Translations under genes and position numbers: made by a program
Source of the DNA: Kiritimatiellia bacterium
GTDB taxonomy: Bacteria > Verrucomicrobiota > Kiritimatiellia > RFP12 > DVOR01
Assembly: GCA_036651955.1 (NCBI GenBank)
Contig: JAVVWU010000001.1
Span: forward strand, 24,932 to 88,931
Length of the DNA stretch: 64,000 bases
Direction of reading: 5' to 3'
Part shown: positions 914 through 62,752 of the stretch, in pieces
How positions within the stretch are numbered: position 1 is the first letter of the stretch
How the letters are laid out: each line of letters begins with the position of its first letter
The notes under the pieces: generated by a model
Seen by the model: the letters and a program-made list of their open reading frames with translations, nothing else
What the model was told of the DNA's origin: nothing
Database searches by the model: none

Positions 914-1834
914 TCATCGTGTTTGAGTATAAAGAGGCGTCAAAATCCAACGGCGGTTATACCAGAACCATTGTTCCGGCTTCGCACGAATTTCCGCTTC
1001 AAAGAGATTCCAGACAGACTGTGAGAGCCGCACCATATCCGCGTCAACTTCAGCTTCTAAATCCGAGTATAACGGTTCACAAAGACGAATTATATGATGC
1101 GACGCATCCAATCGTTCCATAAAGAGAGGCACAATCGGAACATTCGCCATTCGCGCGAATTTCGCCATCCCTTTCCCTAATTGGACATCAGGCTTGCCGA
1201 ATACCGTCACACTCACACCGGGTTTGTTATGCCGGACATCTGGCAATATGGCAAACGCACCGCCACTTTTAAGATGATGCGCAATCCGGATAAAAGAGCT
1301 CGGACGCCGCCGATCTGCAGCCTCAAATTCACCGAGTCGATTCCGACAAAGCCATTTTTCAACAAGCGGATTATTTTGTGCCCGTGCCAGCGCCATGAGA
1401 GGAATACCAAAACTGCCACACGCAATTCCGGCAAAATCCCAGTTCCCCATATGTGGAAGCGCAAGCACCGCACCACCATGTTTGGCAATAATGGCACGTA
1501 ATTTTTCCCGCGCCTCCTCACATCCTTGAAGATGTGTAAGGAGATAATCATCATTCATCTTTCCGGCGTGCATGATTTCGACATAGTTCATCACCATGTT
1601 CCAAATCGAAACGCGCGCAATGCAACGAATCTTTTTCACAGGGAAATCGGCACCAAAAACTTCGCGCATCCGCGAAACCGTTTCACGTTTTAACGGCCAG
1701 TAAAAACAAAAGAAAATGCGGAAGAAAGCAGAAACAATAGCTCCAAGCACTGCAATCGGAATAAGGCAAACCGTCATCTGAGCGGAACGCAGAATTGCGT
1801 ACTCCAACAGATGCCTGAAACTGTATTTTTTCAT
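914..1834 (-). CDS. lipid A biosynthesis lauroyl/myristoyl acyltransferase (LpxL/HtrB family)
   Basis: 306 aa with an N-terminal TM segment and an acyltransferase-like core (HMGNWD, ILPD). Stop at 914 and ATG at 1832-1834. Confidence 0.75.
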   Translation of the reverse strand: MKKYSFRHLLEYAILRSAQMTVCLIPIAVLGAIVSAFFRIFFCFYWPLKRETVSRMREVFGADFPVKKIRCIARVSIWNMVMNYVEIMHAGKMNDDYLLTHLQGCEEAREKLRAIIAKHGGAVLALPHMGNWDFAGIACGSFGIPLMALARAQNNPLVEKWLCRNRLGEFEAADRRRPSSFIRIAHHLKSGGAFAILPDVRHNKPGVSVTVFGKPDVQLGKGMAKFARMANVPIVPLFMERLDASHHIIRLCEPLYSDLEAEVDADMVRLSQSVWNLFEAEIRAKPEQWFWYNRRWILTPLYTQTR

Positions 1835-1839
1835 GTAAA

Positions 1840-2274
1840 TTACTTACTTCCGACCGAGGCAATGAGATCAATTACATCTTGTCGTGTGGCATTCGCGAGA
1901 TCCGCCGCTTCTTGTAAAGTTTCAACGCGCGCTTTTACTGCCAATAATGTTTTACGATAATCGGCAATGAGCTCCATCATACTCGCAATCTTGTCGCCCA
2001 TCTGTTGTGCGGCGGATTCCGCCTTTACCAACATACGGCGTGTTTGAAGCAGCTGTTGAAGAAGCTCTCCCGGATCACAATCCAAATCCTCAAGGTGCAT
2101 CCCCTCTGGAATCGGAGCTTGAATAATGGAACCACAGGAAGGACAGGGTACTTGAAGACCTGCCGCACGATAATCCACGACTAAGTTATGCCCGCAATGC
2201 GGACAGTCAAATACAATGTCAGTGGGCATAATCTCAACGTCTTGAGCCTCGTCTTGATTCTCTTCATCGTTCAT
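1840..2274 (-). CDS. hypothetical double zinc-ribbon plus coiled-coil protein
   Basis: 144 aa with CPHCGHNL...(14)...CPSCGSII followed by a heptad-rich C-terminus. An AGGAGG RBS sits before the ATG. Confidence 0.55.
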   Translation of the reverse strand: MNDEENQDEAQDVEIMPTDIVFDCPHCGHNLVVDYRAAGLQVPCPSCGSIIQAPIPEGMHLEDLDCDPGELLQQLLQTRRMLVKAESAAQQMGDKIASMMELIADYRKTLLAVKARVETLQEAADLANATRQDVIDLIASVGSK

Positions 2275-2418
2275 AGCAAGCCTCCTAAAGATTGACGCAA
2301 GTCTAACAAACTTGGCAAGGTTCGTGCAACTCTAAGATTGCGTAGCAGGTCTCTCGCCTACCTCTTCTTTACTTATCGGCATCTATCACCGCGCCATCAG
2401 ACTAGTGACGCAGCGCCG

Positions 2419-4380
2419 TCAGCAGTGTGTGTATGTATGTGTTCTGTATGGGGGGGGGGGCTCTAGCCCACACGTTGTATCCAAAACACCCCCTGTTGTT
2501 GTAAACCGGCTTACGGTAACGTTATGTTCCGAACAAAAAGCACGAATTTCCGCCTCACGTTCCACGCCAATCGCCGCCGACGTTAAAATCAAATGCGTAG
2601 GACGAAGTTTTGCAAACACTCGCGATGATTTCAACTCTTCCAACGGCCCCAAAACAGGAAGATCGCGGAAAACGCGTCCGCGCATCGAAAGATTGTCCTC
2701 AAGAATACCTACCAGTGCTATGTTGTTACACGTCACATTGTATTCAAAGAACGTAATGTAGGCACGCAGATTCACTCCTGCCCCATAAAAAAGGATACGT
2801 TCAATCGTTGGGTTCGAAAGCGATTGCCGACGAAGACGATTATTTTCGACACCAGCAAGATATTGCAGAAATACCGTTTTCCCATGACGCACAAACAATA
2901 GAGGCAAAGGTAAAAGAAACGCCCATAAGATATGAAACGTCAGAAGGGAGTGCGCCAATTCCGGACGTGCAAAATTAAGTCCCATCTGCGAAATAAAGGA
3001 GCCAAATAAAATCGCAAAAACCAATTGATAACTATCCTTACGCGTACTCCGTTCCCAAATTCGCGTGTAACATCGTGCCAATACTAAGCAGACGATTACG
3101 GGAACAATAAAGGTCAACACAATATTCAGAAGCGTCATCGTTGAGAGGTATTCTGATGGTAGATTGAGCGCTGGAAGCATATGTAAAGAACAGAAAAGTC
3201 CCACCATAATCATCAAGTCCAAAACGGCATAGATAATTACAGCAACACTCCGACGCCCCACACTCACGGAAGGGCGTGTCAATAATCGTCCGGCATCCCA
3301 AATTTCCACATTGGTCATTGCCCGAACAACCACATAGGCAAACGCCATAAATCCCACCAGGAAAATAGAGGCTTTATATTCTTTTACACACACCACGAGA
3401 AATCCAATCGCGACCAAAAAAGACGCAAGACCGTAAAGACACCAGACCGCCAAACGTTGATTATTCCCCAACCAAAGCAAAAAACGATGATGGAAATGAT
3501 CGCAATCCGCCGTCATTACCGCCGACGTTTTATCATTTCTGACAGGATTCAGAAAATATCGTAACGTTCGCCGTACAATCGCCAGTAACGTATCCATCAG
3601 CGGGATTCCCAAACACAGCAGCGGCACTCCAATCGTCACAATCAACGCCTCTTGATTATAGGTGCGCAATGCGATTGTCGCCAAAAAGGTTCCTAGAAAA
3701 AGCGATCCAGTATCACCCAAGAAAATCGATGCGGGATTATAGTTATAACGCAAAAATCCCAACAAGACACCGATGAAAATTACCGAAACAAAAAGGATAT
3801 TGCGTTCTCCATTCGTAAAGATCACAACACCACAAAGTCCAATGGTTGCAATAATGGAGAGCCCGGAAGATAAACCATCCAACCCGTCAATCAAATTAAA
3901 GGCATTCACAATACCGACATACCACAACACCGTCAAAGGGACGTAGACCCATGGCGAATGTCCGAAGCTTCCGAAAATCGACTCCGGCAAAATAAATTGT
4001 GTACCACTGTAGCAGAAGAAAAGTGCCACCGCAATTTGTACAACCAATTTTATGGGTGCCGAAACACCTTTTACATCATCCCAAAAACCGGTCGCTGACA
4101 TCACTAAAGCGCCGATCGTGAACGGAATTAAAATATCAAGAAACGGTTGCTTCTCAATGAGTTCAGGAAAAAAATGAATGAGACCGAACGTCACAATAAA
4201 AAAAGAAGCCACGACCGCTACACCGCCACCACGCGGAATGGGGATTTTATTGATGCGCCGTTCCGAGGGAATATCTACCGCATTTAGTTTTCGCATCATC
4301 CACCGCACAATCGGTGTCAATACCAACGACAAAACAATCGATGCCAGACCAAGAACCAACAATTTCAAAAAAAAGATCAT
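2419..4380 (-). CDS. WecA/MraY-family undecaprenyl-phosphate sugar-1-phosphate transferase fused to a C-terminal Rossmann-like (sugar-transferase N-terminal type) domain
   Basis: 653 aa with multiple TM segments, FWDDVKG and NLIDGLDGL motifs typical of GT4 MraY/WecA. The C-terminus (ILFYGAGVNL...VLGPLEEL) resembles the CoA-binding domain of WbaP-like transferases. The ORF ends in a PPPP tail encoded by the poly-C tract. Confidence 0.75.
   Translation of the reverse strand: MIFFLKLLVLGLASIVLSLVLTPIVRWMMRKLNAVDIPSERRINKIPIPRGGGVAVVASFFIVTFGLIHFFPELIEKQPFLDILIPFTIGALVMSATGFWDDVKGVSAPIKLVVQIAVALFFCYSGTQFILPESIFGSFGHSPWVYVPLTVLWYVGIVNAFNLIDGLDGLSSGLSIIATIGLCGVVIFTNGERNILFVSVIFIGVLLGFLRYNYNPASIFLGDTGSLFLGTFLATIALRTYNQEALIVTIGVPLLCLGIPLMDTLLAIVRRTLRYFLNPVRNDKTSAVMTADCDHFHHRFLLWLGNNQRLAVWCLYGLASFLVAIGFLVVCVKEYKASIFLVGFMAFAYVVVRAMTNVEIWDAGRLLTRPSVSVGRRSVAVIIYAVLDLMIMVGLFCSLHMLPALNLPSEYLSTMTLLNIVLTFIVPVIVCLVLARCYTRIWERSTRKDSYQLVFAILFGSFISQMGLNFARPELAHSLLTFHILWAFLLPLPLLFVRHGKTVFLQYLAGVENNRLRRQSLSNPTIERILFYGAGVNLRAYITFFEYNVTCNNIALVGILEDNLSMRGRVFRDLPVLGPLEELKSSRVFAKLRPTHLILTSAAIGVEREAEIRAFCSEHNVTVSRFTTTGGVLDTTCGLEPPPPYRTHTYTHC
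2425..2460. repeat. simple-sequence tract: TG/TA microsatellite followed by an 11-nt poly-G (poly-C on the coding strand)
   Basis: tgtgtgtatgtatgtgttctgtatg then g x11 at 2450-2460, read directly. It lies in the last 14 codons of the glycosyltransferase ORF and about 175 bp upstream of the zinc-ribbon gene start. Confidence 0.9.
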
Positions 4381-19155: not shown

Positions 19156-19214
19156 CGTACCTCACTGACCCTGACCTCGTACCTCAGTGAGGTAGAGGGG
19201 CAGACTCAGTGAGG
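19156..19214. repeat. partial, inverted copy of the multi-hairpin intergenic repeat (hairpin-cluster portion only)
   Basis: A 41-nt exact match to the reverse complement of 56459-56499, then a diverged hairpin arm in which ctcagtgagg replaces ctcactgagg. Confidence 0.6.
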
Positions 19215-31163: not shown

Positions 31164-31529
31164 TGCATAAGTCCTACTTGCGTTGCCGACATCAAACGAT
31201 ACTTATGCAGAGCGCACGAACAGCACAAGCCGACGCCTCGCTCGCGTACCTCAGTGAGGCGGAGCGTCTACCTCACTGAGGTACGAGGTCAAGGTCAATG
31301 AGGTAGAGGTCGTACCTCACTGAGGTGCGCGGGCAAACCTTTTGCAATATCTCTTGAAATTTGTTGAGGCTACGACTAAAGCACGATAAATGAAGGAGTA
31401 AGGGGCGTCTCCTCAGACTGTTTCCCACGCCTCAAACTATAAGCGACGCTTGCCGACTTATCAGAGCGTGTTATGCCGCTCTAATTCCTGCATAAGTGTA
31501 GGAAGGAAATAAAATGTCTATTTGAAATT
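31164..31529. repeat. multi-hairpin intergenic repeat element, copy A (366 bp)
   Basis: Starts with ctgcataagt, a 28-nt loop, then acttatgcag. Then three tandem hairpins built from cctcagtgagg/cctcactgagg arms. Then a conserved core ttgcaatatctcttgaaatttgttga..gactaaagcacga. Ends with a third ctgcataagt and tctatttgaaat. Collinear with copy B. Confidence 0.75.
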
Positions 31530-56353: not shown

Positions 56354-56718
56354 CTGCATAAGTCCACATCCGAGTGCAATCCAAAATGCCTACTTATGCA
56401 GAGGGCACAGTTTATGGCACCGTCGGGTACGCCGTGAGCCTCAGTGAGGTAAGAGGTCTACCTCACTGAGGTACGAGGTCAGGGTCAGTGAGGTACGAGC
56501 GCTACCTCACTGAGGTGCGCGGGCAGACCTTTTGCAATATCTCTTGAAATTTGTTGATGCTATGACTAAAGCACGAAGAATGAACGACTAAAGTCGCCTC
56601 CTCGGACAGTTCCACGCCGTAAAACTATAAGAGCGCTCCGCCACTCCCATAAGCGCTCTCTTATCCTTCTCTAATTCCTGCATAAGTGTCATAAGAAATT
56701 AAAACCTCTATTTGAAAT
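56354..56718. repeat. multi-hairpin intergenic repeat element, copy B (365 bp)
   Basis: Same architecture and orientation as copy A. The ctgcataagt/acttatgcag hairpin has an identical 28-nt loop length but a different loop sequence. The hairpin cluster (56437-56516) and the ttgcaatatctcttgaaatttgttga core are near-identical. The terminal ctgcataagt and tctatttgaaat are conserved. Confidence 0.75.
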
Positions 56719-60638: not shown

Positions 60639-61697
60639 ATGAAGACCATTCCAATCGTTCACTGTTTTGATTACAAATATATTATTCCTGCGAGCGTCTG
60701 TTTCCATTCTTTGTTGCGCCATGGCAATCGCGACTGCTTTTATCAACTGTTAGTCATCGGTAGTGGATTAACGCCGGAACATTGCGAAGCGCTTCAAGCC
60801 GTTGTCCGCCCCTTTCCCAATGCCTCGCTTGAAATTATCGAAGCGCCCAAACTGGATCTTCCCGACGGTGGCGAAGTGCTTTCTGCCAATCTTTCCAAAG
60901 ACGTCTTTTATAAAATGCTGATTCCCGAAATCTTTCCGCAATACGATCGCATTATCGTTTCCGATGTGGATATTGTTTACACTGGCGACACCTCGGGAAT
61001 TATGGATTTTCTCCCCGAAGACGACGATGCCTACTTTGCCGGTATTCCCGATCCCGGATATGCCGTTTGGAGAAATGAAGGCATTCTGCGAACGCTCGGC
61101 ACACCGAAGAGTTTCCACCGCTACGATCGTTTCTACACAAAAGAAATGAAAGAGAAATTGTGGTTGAACACCGGATATATGGTGCTCAACGCCAAGAAAA
61201 TGCGCGCGGATAAAATCTCACAAAAGTGTATGGCATATGCAAATGCAAATTTCAAACGGCTCGTTCTGCTCGATCAAGACGTTCTGAATATCATCTGTTT
61301 TCCGCACCTTCGCGCCGTGCCACCGCAATATATGGCGTTTGCGTTGTACCGCAAATTCTATAATGAACTGACTGCCGAACAGCGTAGCGCCGCCCCGGAA
61401 TGGGATGCAATGTTTGCAAAGCCACTTCTCCTTCACTACGTTTCCGGTCTTAAGCCGTGGAAATATCCTGCCTCTCAATTAGCGGAAGTATGGTTCGACA
61501 ATCTCATCGACTGCGGACTATTCGATCAGTGGCGGATTAGTGCTGAAAAACTGGCGCACCCTTACGAACACATTAAGAAACGCCGTCAGATTTGGAAAGG
61601 TTCGATACCTTTCACCTTGCACCCATTGCGAAAATTTGTTCTTACCATTTCCAAAGATACATATGAAACTGCCAAATATGAAGGAGGCGTGCAGTGA
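60639..61697 (+). CDS. glycosyltransferase family 8, tandem paralog 1
   Basis: IPIVHCFDYKYIIPASVCFHSLL...VSDVDIVY (DxD). About 55 % identical by eye to the next gene. Confidence 0.8.
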   Translation: MKTIPIVHCFDYKYIIPASVCFHSLLRHGNRDCFYQLLVIGSGLTPEHCEALQAVVRPFPNASLEIIEAPKLDLPDGGEVLSANLSKDVFYKMLIPEIFPQYDRIIVSDVDIVYTGDTSGIMDFLPEDDDAYFAGIPDPGYAVWRNEGILRTLGTPKSFHRYDRFYTKEMKEKLWLNTGYMVLNAKKMRADKISQKCMAYANANFKRLVLLDQDVLNIICFPHLRAVPPQYMAFALYRKFYNELTAEQRSAAPEWDAMFAKPLLLHYVSGLKPWKYPASQLAEVWFDNLIDCGLFDQWRISAEKLAHPYEHIKKRRQIWKGSIPFTLHPLRKFVLTISKDTYETAKYEGGVQ

Positions 61698-62752
61698 GAA
61701 CAATTCCAATCATTCATTGTTTTGACCACAATTATATTCTGCCCGCCGGCGTCTGTTTCCAGTCCCTGCTTGCAACAGCGAATCCCGATACGTTTTACGC
61801 ATTGCACGTTATCGGTACAGCATTAACCGATGAGGACAAAGAAACACTGTTAACGATTGTCCGCAAATTCCCGAATGCCTCGCTTGAATTTATCGAAGCT
61901 CCCGCGCTGGATCTTCCCGGCGGTGGTGAAATCTCATCGGGGAATCTTTCCAAAGACGTTTTTTATAAAATGCTTATTCCTGAACTTTTCCCACAATATG
62001 ATGTCGCGATCGTGACCGACGTAGACGTTGTTTATAAAAATGATATTGCAACCGCTTTTGATTATTTAAGCGCCGATGACGATGCCTATTTTTGTGGAAC
62101 AAAAGACGTTGGCTACTCCGTTTGGAACAACACCGGCATCTTGCGCGAGTTGGGTGCGCCCAAATTCTTCGTTCGTTACAATCGTCTCTTCTCCTCCGAA
62201 GAACGTGCCGCACTCAAAATCGGCGCCGGTTTTTGCATTTTCAATTGCAAACGTATGCGCGAAGACAAGATTCCTAAAAGATGTCTTGATTTCACCCGTA
62301 AGAACTTTTCACGTTTGTTGCTTCCAGAGCAAGACGTACTGAATATCGTTTGTGCGTCCAAGGTAAAAACGATGCCCTCACGCTTCATGGCGATTGCTTA
62401 CTACGACAAATATTATCAGGAACTCACAGCGGAACAACGCGCGAAGAATCCGGCATGGGATGAAATGTTTTCCGACCCTGTGCAAATACACTATGCTTCC
62501 GGTATTAAACCGTGGAAGTACCCTGCCTCGCCATTGGCAGATCCATGGTTCAAAGCGCTTTTTGACAGTGGACTGTTTGACCGTTGGCGGCTTTGGTTTG
62601 ACCACTATTTGCATCCGTATGAAGAAGTCAAAAAGACACGCGACCTTTTCGAGTTTTCCGTTCCCTTTACGTGGAAACCGCTGCGCCGGCTCATTGTCAA
62701 TTTCTCTAAAGATACCTATGAGGAACATGACCGTGATACCGTTCAAGAGTAA
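61694..62752 (+). CDS. glycosyltransferase family 8, tandem paralog 2
   Basis: [23 protein letters not shown]...VTDVDVVY. Collinear with paralog 1 over the full 352 aa. Overlaps its stop (ATGA-type). Confidence 0.8.

What the first reader, a model, noticed from the sequence alone, without database searches (positions are those of the whole stretch)
2425..2460. Hypermutable-looking simple sequence (TG/TA microsatellite plus G11 homopolymer) at the 3' end of a glycosyltransferase gene and upstream of a zinc-ribbon gene
An 11-nt poly-G run (poly-C in the coding strand) directly abuts a TG/TA dinucleotide-like tract. Both are classic slipped-strand mispairing substrates.

The tract encodes the PPPP...YRTHTYTHC tail of the WecA-like transferase. 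I translated the -1 and +1 tract lengths and both give alternative short tails of about 17-21 aa rather than truncation. ON/OFF switching of the enzyme is therefore unlikely.

The tract is also about 175 bp upstream of the zinc-ribbon/coiled-coil gene, in a position where tract length could modulate read-through or promoter activity. Homopolymeric G tracts of this length are rare in roughly 55 % GC genomes except at contingency loci.
Basis: partly seen in the sequence, partly recalled or inferred. Interest (0 to 1): 0.6.

Follow-up and report, generated by a model that had tools for sequence, protein, structure and literature searches.

The report
Hypervariable poly-C tract at gene end
An 11-base run of G (C on the coding strand) at the very end of a sugar-transferase gene in an uncultured gut Kiritimatiellia bacterium changes length between near-identical strains, but it only rewrites a floppy tail of the enzyme and lies outside the next operon's promoter, so it is a real but fairly ordinary slippage hotspot.

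Summary
G11 lies at window 2450-2460, which is C11 on the coding strand. It is the only G/C run longer than 6 in 64 kb. It forms the last codons of a 653-aa MraY/WecA-type glycosyltransferase, 176 nt upstream of a zinc-ribbon gene.

In assemblies of 99.1-99.8 % identical strains the tract is C10, C11, C16 or C22. In four further assemblies a gap or contig end falls at or near it. Nine other homopolymers in the same 7 kb never vary. The tract is therefore hypermutable.

Its consequences look small:
- Homologues end about 10 residues before the tract.
- AlphaFold gives residues 639-653 low confidence (pLDDT below 50), which suggests disorder.
- Four strains use all three stop codons, so no tail is conserved.
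- A promoter-like motif (TTGnnn-N18-TA(G/A)ACT) is conserved across four species. Its -35 element is 121 nt downstream of the tract, so the tract is not a promoter spacer.

The tract sits in a roughly 160-nt species-specific junction where synteny breaks. The TG/TA "microsatellite" is short and imperfect.

Best reading: slipped-strand tail switching of the "C-terminal phase variation" type, probably near-neutral. It is a new member of a known kind, with modest interest.

The parts
2450..2460 (-). Hypervariable homopolymer: C11 on the coding strand, G11 on the + strand. It encodes the poly-proline at residues 641-644 of the transferase.
   Evidence: Searches show it is the only G/C run longer than 6 in the window. 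Its length is 10, 11, 16 or 22 in near-identical strains. Other homopolymers are invariant.
2422..2449 (-). Imperfect CA/TA-rich low-complexity stretch (ATACAGAACACATACATACACACACTGC). It has no stop in any frame and encodes the alternative tails.
   Evidence: It is not reported by Tandem Repeats Finder. One strain (L001) carries an AC-to-G change here that shifts the frame by -1.
2397..2421 (-). The three frame-specific stop codons reached after the tract: TGA at 2419-2421 (C11 frame), TAG at 2402-2404, and TGA at 2397-2399.
   Evidence: Read directly from the sequence and from simulated tract lengths 7-24. All three stops are used among four strains.
2419..4380 (-). Gene for a 653-aa polyprenyl-phosphate sugar-phosphate transferase. 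It has an N-terminal MraY/WecA-type GT4 domain, extra transmembrane helices and a C-terminal Rossmann-like domain. The folded part ends near residue 625.
   Evidence: Pfam PF00953, E = 1.2e-39. The Foldseek search matches MraY and DPAGT1 at E = 4e-9 to 4e-6, and the C-terminal domain matches 3nkl. AlphaFold model: mean pLDDT 81.9, last strand at 622-625, residues 639-653 below 50. Homologues end before the tract.
2330..2493 (-). Species-specific junction segment between the conserved end of the transferase gene and the conserved promoter-like motif of the next operon. It contains the tract, the CA-rich stretch, a strain-variable 7-8-nt indel and several SNPs.
   Evidence: Synteny with Ca. Spyradenecus (L010) runs from window 10601 to 2494 and stops there. 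The upstream neighbours of the zinc-ribbon operon differ in every species.
2281..2329 (-). Putative promoter and RBS of the zinc-ribbon operon: -35 TTGCAC at 2329-2324, an 18-nt spacer with TG at -15/-14, -10 TAGACT at 2305-2300, and GGAGG at 2285-2281.
   Evidence: The architecture TTGnnn-N18-TA(G/A)ACT plus GGAGG is kept in four species whose surrounding sequence is otherwise diverged. It is invariant among the strains apart from two adjacent spacer bases in L005. The simple consensus scan did not call it.
1840..2274 (-). Zinc-ribbon / coiled-coil gene (144 aa), the first gene of a conserved block: zinc-ribbon, LpxL-like acyltransferase, aminotransferase, PFK.
   Evidence: Only weak zinc-ribbon Pfam hits. 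Homologues are 63-88 % identical in sister species and always sit next to the acyltransferase.
914..1834 (-). Lipid A biosynthesis (LpxL-type) acyltransferase gene, starting 5 nt after the zinc-ribbon gene.
   Evidence: Pfam PF03279, E = 4.9e-25.

Best explanation
The tract is a slipped-strand-mispairing hotspot: a pure poly-C run on the coding strand that gains and loses bases quickly.

It sits just past the folded, conserved end of a MraY/WecA-type initiating glycosyltransferase. A length change therefore does not switch the enzyme off. It changes the number of prolines (3 to 7 in the strains seen) and moves translation among three short alternative tails of 13-24 residues, each ending at its own stop codon. 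This is the arrangement described as "C-terminal phase variation".

The tract lies in a roughly 160-nt species-specific junction. This junction was created when the Rex-DUF218-DegT-transferase block came to lie next to the conserved zinc-ribbon/LpxL-like operon. That operon carries its own promoter-like motif close to its start, 121 nt beyond the tract.

- **Shown:** the tract exists, it is exceptional for this sequence, it varies between strains, its length determines the tail, it lies beyond the conserved domain, and it lies outside the conserved promoter-like motif.
- **Inferred:** the variation arises by replication slippage, and the tail variants have little or no effect on enzyme function, so the tract is tolerated rather than used as a switch.
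For: - **Outlier.** G11 is the only G/C run longer than 6 in 64 kb. Shuffles give 0.12 expected G9 matches.
- **Variation between strains.** Lengths are 10, 11, 16 and 22 in strains 99.1-99.8 % identical over 1.6-6.3 kb.
- **Assembly failures at or near the tract.** There is a 29-N scaffold gap exactly over the tract in L003. The L006 contig starts 7 nt after it. The L112 contig ends 40 nt before it. In the RSD41 MAG both flanking genes are partial.
- **Control.** Nine other homopolymers of 6-8 nt in the same 7 kb have the same length in every assembly that covers them.
- **Tails.** The four resolved strains have four different tails and use all three stop codons.
- **Position relative to the protein.** 61 homologues at 48-55 % identity end about 10 residues before the tract and none has a poly-proline tail. 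In the AlphaFold model the last strand is 622-625 and pLDDT is below 50 for 639-653.
- **Synteny.** Synteny with L010 ends at window 2494. The transferase has different downstream neighbours in L010/L090/L094, L091/L092 and L113. The zinc-ribbon operon has different upstream neighbours in three other species.
- **Promoter.** A conserved TTGnnn-N18-TA(G/A)ACT motif with GGAGG lies at window 2329-2281.
- **Relaxed constraint.** The junction carries an indel and several SNPs between strain lineages.
- **Precedent.** C-terminal phase variation by 3'-terminal poly-G tracts was described in Helicobacter canadensis, including in a sugar-nucleotide enzyme (PMC2823697). Long G/C runs occur in capsule genes of Akkermansia, which I place in the same PVC superphylum from my own knowledge (PMC3048395).
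Against: - No read-level data were available. Within-population switching, its rate and its reversibility are not shown.
- Illumina assemblies can misreport long homopolymer lengths, so individual values such as 10 versus 11 are uncertain.
- A long, pure tract kept in both strain lineages could reflect selection for mutability. However, only about 0.8 % divergence separates the lineages, so this says little.
- A homologous transferase in a Lentisphaeria MAG has C9 five nt after its stop. Another homologue has G9 inside its ORF. These hint that homopolymers on this gene family may not be accidental.
- Runs of 3-7 prolines could affect translation of the enzyme. This was not tested.
- Only about 80 kb of the genome could be inspected.
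Confidence: 0.6

Rival explanations
1. Functional C-terminal phase variation, acting as a rheostat. Tract length would tune the amount or behaviour of the initiating transferase. It could do so through the number of consecutive prolines (ribosome stalling that depends on EF-P) or through the identity of the tail (stability, interactions). Subpopulations would then differ in surface glycan output.
For: - The tract encodes 3-7 consecutive prolines depending on its length.
- The gene belongs to a class often under phase variation: a surface-glycan initiating enzyme paired with a DegT aminotransferase.
- The same family carries G9 inside the ORF in L091/L092 and C9 next to the stop in L019.
- Only 5 G/C runs of 8 or more occur in 1.33 Mb of fetched loci.
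- The concept is published (PMC2823697).
Against: - The tail lies beyond the conserved fold and has low AlphaFold confidence.
- No tail is preferred among strains, and all three frames are seen.
- Most orthologues have no tract at all.
- No expression data exist.
Confidence: 0.2
2. Regulator of the downstream operon. Tract length would change how much transcription from the transferase operon reads through into the zinc-ribbon/LpxL-like genes. For example, the C-rich, G-poor RNA could act as a length-tunable loading site for Rho. Alternatively, the tract could pair with the G5 located 29 nt upstream.
For: - All genes from Rex to PFK are on one strand, and no intrinsic terminator lies after the transferase gene.
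- The 60 nt starting at the tract have C = 26 and G = 9, which places them in the top 0.12 % of 60-nt windows on this strand.
- The minimum-free-energy fold pairs the G5 at 2489-2493 with the tract.
Against: - The operon has its own conserved promoter-like motif 121 nt downstream of the tract.
- In sister species the operon sits behind unrelated genes without any such tract.
- The fold is no more stable than shuffled sequence (z = -0.19).
- There is no Rfam match.
- The tract is translated in every frame, which would hinder Rho loading.
- The rest of the junction is poorly conserved between strains.
Confidence: 0.1
3. Promoter-spacer switch, as in Bordetella fim or Neisseria opc/porA. Tract length would set the spacing or strength of a promoter for the zinc-ribbon gene.
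For: - Long poly-C or poly-G tracts upstream of genes are the classic form of transcriptional phase variation (own knowledge).
- The tract is upstream of the zinc-ribbon gene.
Against: - The scan found no promoter-like site on the - strand near the tract.
- The conserved -35/-10 pair lies at 2329-2300, which is 121 nt away. Its 18-nt spacer does not include the tract.
- The tract lies inside an ORF.
Confidence: 0.03
4. Assembly or sequencing artefact. The run, or its length differences, would come from homopolymer errors or poly-G read artefacts rather than from biology.
For: - All the data are short-read metagenome assemblies.
- Several assemblies break or leave gaps here.
- Scaffold N-gaps also occur elsewhere, for example at L114 19841-19850.
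Against: - The tract is internal. It has the same unique flanks in five independent assemblies from NCBI MAGs and Logan.
- Lengths from 10 to 22 differ by far more than typical miscalls.
- All other homopolymers agree across the assemblies.
Confidence: 0.05

Closest known systems
C-terminal phase variation by 3'-terminal homopolymeric tracts (Helicobacter canadensis; Snyder et al. 2010, PMC2823697)
   Same: A long G/C homopolymer sits in the last codons of a coding sequence. All three frames give a full-length protein that differs only in a short C-terminal tail. Tract length varies between sequenced populations. The affected genes include sugar-nucleotide and surface-structure enzymes.
   Different: Here there is a single tract in about 80 kb rather than dozens per genome. 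The organism is an uncultured gut Kiritimatiellia. The tail lies wholly beyond the conserved fold. The variation is shown between strains, not within one read set.
Translational ON/OFF phase variation of glycosyltransferase genes by poly-G/C tracts (Campylobacter, Neisseria lgt/pgtA, Haemophilus, Pasteurella; e.g. PMC2193922, PMC9176279, titles and abstracts seen)
   Same: The mutational mechanism (slipped-strand mispairing at a G/C run) and the gene class (surface-glycan transferase) are the same.
   Different: Those tracts lie early or in the middle of the ORF, so a frameshift truncates the enzyme. Here the tract is 13 codons from the stop and cannot truncate the enzyme.
Promoter poly-C/poly-G switches (Bordetella fim2/fim3, Neisseria opc, porA; own knowledge)
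   Same: The tract is poly-C of about 10-22 nt and lies upstream of a gene.
   Different: Those tracts lie within or directly beside the -35/-10 elements. This one is 121 nt upstream of the conserved -35 and inside a coding sequence.
Long mononucleotide runs in capsule and acyltransferase genes of Akkermansia muciniphila (van Passel et al. 2011, PMC3048395)
   Same: The host is a gut bacterium, in the same PVC superphylum by my own knowledge. The runs are G8 and C10 in polysaccharide-related genes and were proposed as phase-variation candidates.
   Different: That proposal rested on one genome. Here length variation between strains is actually seen, and the position makes an ON/OFF effect unlikely.

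Membership tests
Simple-sequence contingency locus (SSR-mediated phase variation) | A repeat tract long enough for frequent slippage (G/C run of about 8 or more) | tested here: met
   C11 in the window and C10 to C22 in other strains.
Simple-sequence contingency locus (SSR-mediated phase variation) | Tract length is polymorphic among very close relatives while the flanks are stable | tested here: met
   Four different lengths occur in strains 99.1-99.8 % identical. Nine control homopolymers are invariant.
Simple-sequence contingency locus (SSR-mediated phase variation) | High-frequency, reversible switching within a clonal population | not testable with these tools
   No raw reads or cultures were available. 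Gaps and contig breaks at or near the tract are only suggestive.
Simple-sequence contingency locus (SSR-mediated phase variation) | A length change switches or grades the expression of a gene | tested here: not met
   No frame truncates the enzyme. The tail lies beyond the conserved domain and has low AlphaFold confidence. The tract is outside the downstream promoter-like motif. A graded effect was not measured.
C-terminal phase variation (Snyder et al. 2010) | The homopolymer lies at the 3' end of the coding sequence, so every frame yields a protein that differs only at its C-terminus | tested here: met
   Simulated lengths 7-24 give three tails of 12-24 residues after residue 640. The definition is in PMC2823697.
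C-terminal phase variation (Snyder et al. 2010) | Tract-length heterogeneity within the read data of one population | not testable with these tools
   Only assemblies were accessible.
Promoter-spacer homopolymer switch (fim/opc/porA type) | The tract lies between or directly beside the -35 and -10 elements of the regulated gene | tested here: not met
   The conserved -35 (2329-2324) and -10 (2305-2300) are 121 nt or more from the tract. No promoter-like site lies at the tract.
Polyprenyl-phosphate N-acetylhexosamine-1-phosphate transferase superfamily (MraY/WecA, Pfam Glycos_transf_4) | Sequence match to the family profile above the curated cut-off | tested here: met
   PF00953: 136.4 bits against a cut-off of 27, E = 1.2e-39, residues 86-239.
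Polyprenyl-phosphate N-acetylhexosamine-1-phosphate transferase superfamily (MraY/WecA, Pfam Glycos_transf_4) | Polytopic membrane fold like MraY/DPAGT1 | tested here: met
   The model (pLDDT 81.9) matches MraY 5jnq at E = 4e-9 and target TM-score 0.73, and DPAGT1 at E = 3e-7. The protein is about twice as long as WecA. Its extra C-terminal domain resembles 3nkl.
Polyprenyl-phosphate N-acetylhexosamine-1-phosphate transferase superfamily (MraY/WecA, Pfam Glycos_transf_4) | Specific substrate and pathway (WecA-like UDP-GlcNAc : Und-P transfer) | not testable with these tools
   Only the conserved pairing with a DegT-type aminotransferase hints at an amino-sugar substrate.

The most novel reading that the evidence does not exclude
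The tract could be a selected, length-tunable control element rather than junk. By setting the length of the poly-proline stall and/or the strength of a C-rich Rho-loading site at the end of the transferase message, it would couple the output of the glycan-initiating enzyme to read-through into the adjacent lipid A acyltransferase operon.

Independent G/C homopolymers on the same transferase family support a wider version of this idea. One homologue in a Lentisphaeria MAG has C9 five nt after its stop, and a 44 % GC relative has G9 inside its ORF.
Probability: 0.12. Interest if true: 0.6.

Novelty: new member of a known kind. Interest (0 to 1): 0.3.

Why it matters
This gives sequence-level evidence for a hypermutable homopolymer in Kiritimatiellia. 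The case also shows that such tracts can be recognised from public MAGs alone.

The practical value is modest. The site is a good strain marker. It is also a known trouble spot for assembly and gene calling: the transferase is annotated with lengths of 639, 653, 660 and 664 aa, or as partial, because of it.

It would matter more if tract length turned out to tune the initiating glycosyltransferase or the neighbouring lipid A acyltransferase operon. That would be a graded, non-ON/OFF form of surface variation in a gut commensal.

Tried and rejected
- **Genome collection, first scan.** The whole transferase was used as query and no relative was found. The species appears to be absent from the representative genomes.
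- **Genome collection, second scan.** The family alignment was used, but the generic GT4 motifs filled the 80-locus limit mostly with unrelated Firmicutes and Actinobacteria. Only about 9 full-length relatives were recovered.
- **Metagenome scan.** A C-terminal-domain alignment gave only 7 loci. The survey of orthologous 3' ends is therefore small.
- **Motif and structure scans around the tract.** There were no Rfam matches, no intrinsic terminator and no - strand promoter call. The RNA fold of the junction is no better than shuffled sequence (z = -0.19).
- **Rho.** A search for a Rho gene in the window by its Walker-A motif found nothing. This is uninformative for a 64-kb piece.
- **Literature.** Searches for the run and assembly accessions found nothing, so the source study and sequencing platform remain unknown.
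- **G9 variation in L091/L092.** Exact-protein look-ups can only return the in-frame length, and neighbouring genes of fetched loci may not be looked up. Variation of that tract could not be assessed.
- **More of the genome.** Extending beyond both window ends by about 9 and 8 kb found no further long G/C run.
- **Rejected ideas.** An ON/OFF switch of the transferase, a promoter-spacer switch, and the antisense ORF at 2405-2761 (+) as a real gene. The last lies wholly inside or opposite the well-supported transferase ORF.
Full report
**1. What is in the sequence**

Window 2450-2460 is eleven G on the + strand. All nearby genes are on the - strand, so in the genes' own direction this is C11.

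The window is 51.0 % GC, yet G/C homopolymers are strongly avoided. Apart from this run there is one G6 and one C6, while A/T runs reach 8. A G9 pattern matches only inside this tract. Shuffled sequence gives 0.12 expected matches, and none of 100 shuffles reaches the observed 3.

Next to the tract, at 2422-2449, lies a CA/TA-rich stretch on the coding strand: ATACAGAACACATACATACACACACTGC. It is imperfect. The longest perfect dinucleotide repeat is four units, and Tandem Repeats Finder does not report it at minimum score 30.

**2. The genes around it**

The tract forms codons 641-644 of a 653-aa ORF at 4380..2419 (-), whose tail reads ...GLEPPPPYRTHTYTHC*.

- The ORF matches Pfam Glycos_transf_4, the MraY/WecA family, with E = 1.2e-39.
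- Its AlphaFold model has mean pLDDT 81.9. The N-terminal half superposes on MraY and human DPAGT1 (Foldseek E = 4e-9 to 4e-6).
- A C-terminal Rossmann-like domain weakly resembles PDB 3nkl.
- NCBI names for identical or near-identical proteins place the organism in uncultured Kiritimatiellia MAGs.

Upstream on the same strand are Rex, DUF218 and a DegT-type aminotransferase that overlaps the transferase start. Downstream, after 144 nt, come a 144-aa zinc-ribbon/coiled-coil gene (2274..1840), an LpxL-type lipid A acyltransferase (1834..914), an aminotransferase and PFK.

**3.

Exact-protein look-ups of neighbouring genes returned independent assemblies of the same species from NCBI MAGs and Logan assemblies of SRR25820365-8. 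They are 99.1-99.8 % identical to the window over 1.6-6.3 kb.

| Assembly | State at the tract |
|---|---|
| L004/L115 | C10 |
| window | C11 |
| L001 | C16 |
| L002 | C22 |
| L003/L114 | 29-N scaffold gap exactly over the tract |
| L006 | contig starts 7 nt after the tract |
| L112 | contig ends 40 nt before the tract |
| RSD41 MAG | both flanking genes partial |

Sources for this table are.

As a control, the nine other homopolymers of 6-8 nt in the shared 7 kb have the same length in every assembly that covers them. The length differences are therefore specific to this tract and far larger than ordinary miscalls. Individual values such as 10 versus 11 should still be treated with caution. 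Scaffold gaps also occur elsewhere, for example at L114 19841-19850.

What could not be shown is variation within one population. That needs the reads.

**4. What a length change does to the transferase**

I simulated tract lengths 7-24 on the window backbone. This gives three tails after residue 640, each preceded by a variable number of prolines:
- ...YRTHTYTHC*
- ...HTEHIHTHTADGAASLV*
- ...IQNTYIHTLLTALRH*

The corresponding stops are at 2419-2421, 2397-2399 and 2402-2404.

The four resolved strains carry four different tails and use all three stops. L001 adds a 1-nt change in the CA-rich stretch. No tail is therefore conserved.

Sixty-one homologues at 48-55 % identity end about ten residues before the tract position, with unrelated short tails and no poly-proline. 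In the model the last strand is at residues 622-625, and residues 639-653 have pLDDT below 50. The tract thus rewrites a tail of low model confidence beyond the fold. It cannot truncate the enzyme.

**5. Is it part of the downstream promoter? No**

The zinc-ribbon protein is far better conserved than the transferase. In other gut Kiritimatiellia species it is 63-88 % identical, against 55 % or less for the transferase. The block of zinc-ribbon, LpxL-like acyltransferase, aminotransferase and PFK is kept in those species, but the gene in front of it differs each time:
- glutamine synthetase III
- a divergent phosphoglucomutase, 1.1 kb away
- a hypothetical protein

Sequence just upstream of the zinc-ribbon start is otherwise diverged. 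Even so, all four species keep TTGnnn, an 18-nt spacer with TG at -15/-14, TA(G/A)ACT, and then GGAGG. In the window these are at 2329-2324, 2305-2300 and 2285-2281. Among the strains this segment is invariant apart from two adjacent spacer bases in L005.

I read this as the operon's own promoter and RBS. That reading is an inference from conservation. The simple consensus scan did not call it. The tract lies 121 nt upstream of the -35 element, so it cannot act as a promoter spacer.

**6. Where the tract sits in evolutionary terms**

Gene order is shared with Candidatus Spyradenecus (L010) from window 10601 down to 2494. It stops at the end of the transferase gene. In other species the transferase is followed by:
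- an M3 peptidase-like gene, identified from its sequence by my own reading and not annotated by any tool (L010, L090, L094, L091/L092)
- a PEP-CTERM protein after a 790-nt spacer (L113)

Neither arrangement has a homopolymer at the transferase's 3' end.

The roughly 160 nt between 2330 and 2493 are therefore a species-specific junction between two conserved blocks. Besides the tract and the CA-rich stretch, the junction holds a 7-8-nt indel and several SNPs between the two strain lineages. That density is several times the roughly 0.8 % background, which suggests relaxed constraint.

There is no intrinsic terminator, no Rfam family and no unusually stable RNA fold here.

**7. Best explanation and rivals**

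The best-supported reading is a slipped-strand hotspot that produces C-terminal tail switching and is probably close to neutral. I give this confidence 0.6. The hypermutability and the tail switching themselves are much more secure than the neutrality.

Rivals:
- **Rheostat on the transferase (0.2).** It would act through poly-proline length or tail identity.
- **Effect on read-through into the lipid A acyltransferase operon (0.1).** The mechanism could be a C-rich, G-poor Rho-loading site. The 60 nt starting at the tract are in the top 0.12 % for C-over-G on this strand. This is almost true by construction, however, and the tract is translated in all frames.
- **Promoter-spacer switch (0.03).**
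- **Artefact (0.05).**

**8. Comparison with what is known**

The arrangement matches "C-terminal phase variation" described for Helicobacter canadensis. There, eight genes, including rfbB, carry G11-G14 tracts near their 3' ends (PMC2823697).

It differs from two other classic types, both named here from my own knowledge:
- ON/OFF transferase switches of Campylobacter, Neisseria and Pasteurella, where the tract is early in the ORF.
- Promoter poly-C switches, such as Bordetella fim and Neisseria opc.

Akkermansia, which I place in the same PVC superphylum from my own knowledge, was reported to have G8 and C10 runs in capsule-related genes (PMC3048395). A search for papers combining Kiritimatiellia with phase variation or homopolymers found none on Kiritimatiellia.

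The finding is a new member of a known kind.

**9. Limits**

- Only about 80 kb of this genome could be inspected: the window plus about 9 and 8 kb of flanks from other MAGs. It holds no other G/C run longer than 6. That argues against a dense contingency system but cannot exclude one.
- The survey of orthologous 3' ends is small, about 15 loci.
- One distant homologue in a Lentisphaeria MAG has C9 five nt after its stop.
- Another homologue, from a 44 % GC relative, has G9 inside its ORF at the conserved W-G-G.
- Only five G/C runs of 8 or more occur in 1.33 Mb of fetched loci. This recurrence is worth a proper test, but it was noticed after the fact.

Noticed in passing
L019 6936-6951 (uncultured Lentisphaeria MAG, CALABZ010000223.1): A distant homologue (28 % identity, 646 aa) of the same transferase family has a C9 run starting 5 nt after its stop codon. 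This is nearly the same relative position as the window's tract. Only 5 G/C runs of 8 or more occur in 1.33 Mb of fetched loci.
   Followed up: partly
L092 1910-1918 and L091 1236-1244 (ERZ808277 / ERZ808286 contigs, 44 % GC): A 48-51 % identical homologue of the transferase carries G9 inside its ORF, at the conserved Trp-Gly-Gly near residue 127 of 644. A 1-nt change there would truncate the enzyme, which makes it a classic ON/OFF candidate. Both contigs have G9. Variation could not be assessed.
   Followed up: partly
window 19180-19194, 31247-31327, 56437-56517: A palindromic element TACCTCACTGAGGTA recurs at three places. At two of them it forms arrays of three copies with a 22-nt period. 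There are 13 matches with up to 2 mismatches, against 0.42 expected. It looks like a REP-type interspersed palindrome. Its function and distribution were not examined.
   Followed up: partly
window 2281-2329 (-); L097, L107, L109, L111 upstream of the zinc-ribbon gene: A promoter-like architecture, TTGnnn-N18-(TG)-TA(G/A)ACT followed by GGAGG, is conserved in four Kiritimatiellia species in front of the zinc-ribbon/LpxL-like/aminotransferase/PFK block. It may be a useful first promoter model for this uncultured clade.
   Followed up: yes
window 1840-2274 (-): The 144-aa zinc-ribbon/coiled-coil protein has no assigned function. It is nevertheless 63-88 % identical across species whose transferase is only about 50 % identical, and it always directly precedes an LpxL-type acyltransferase. 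This suggests a conserved partner role in lipid A or envelope biogenesis.
   Followed up: partly
window 2346-2362 (-); alignment A3 columns 152-165: Two strain lineages differ by a 7-8-nt indel plus substitutions (GATGCCGATAAGTAAAGAAG versus GACTCTAAGAAG) in the junction. Contigs L005 and L007 break near here, probably because both alleles co-occur in a sample.
   Followed up: partly
window 2489-2493 (+ strand C5, which is G5 on the coding strand): This is the only other G run of 5 nearby. It lies 29 nt upstream of the tract, and the predicted RNA fold pairs it with the poly-C. The fold as a whole is no more stable than shuffled sequence (z = -0.19).
   Followed up: partly
window 60639-61697 and 61694-62752 (+): Two tandem, overlapping 352-aa genes of glycosyltransferase family 8 are followed by a hexapeptide-repeat acyltransferase. 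This is another surface-glycan cluster, and it carries no homopolymer tract.
   Followed up: no
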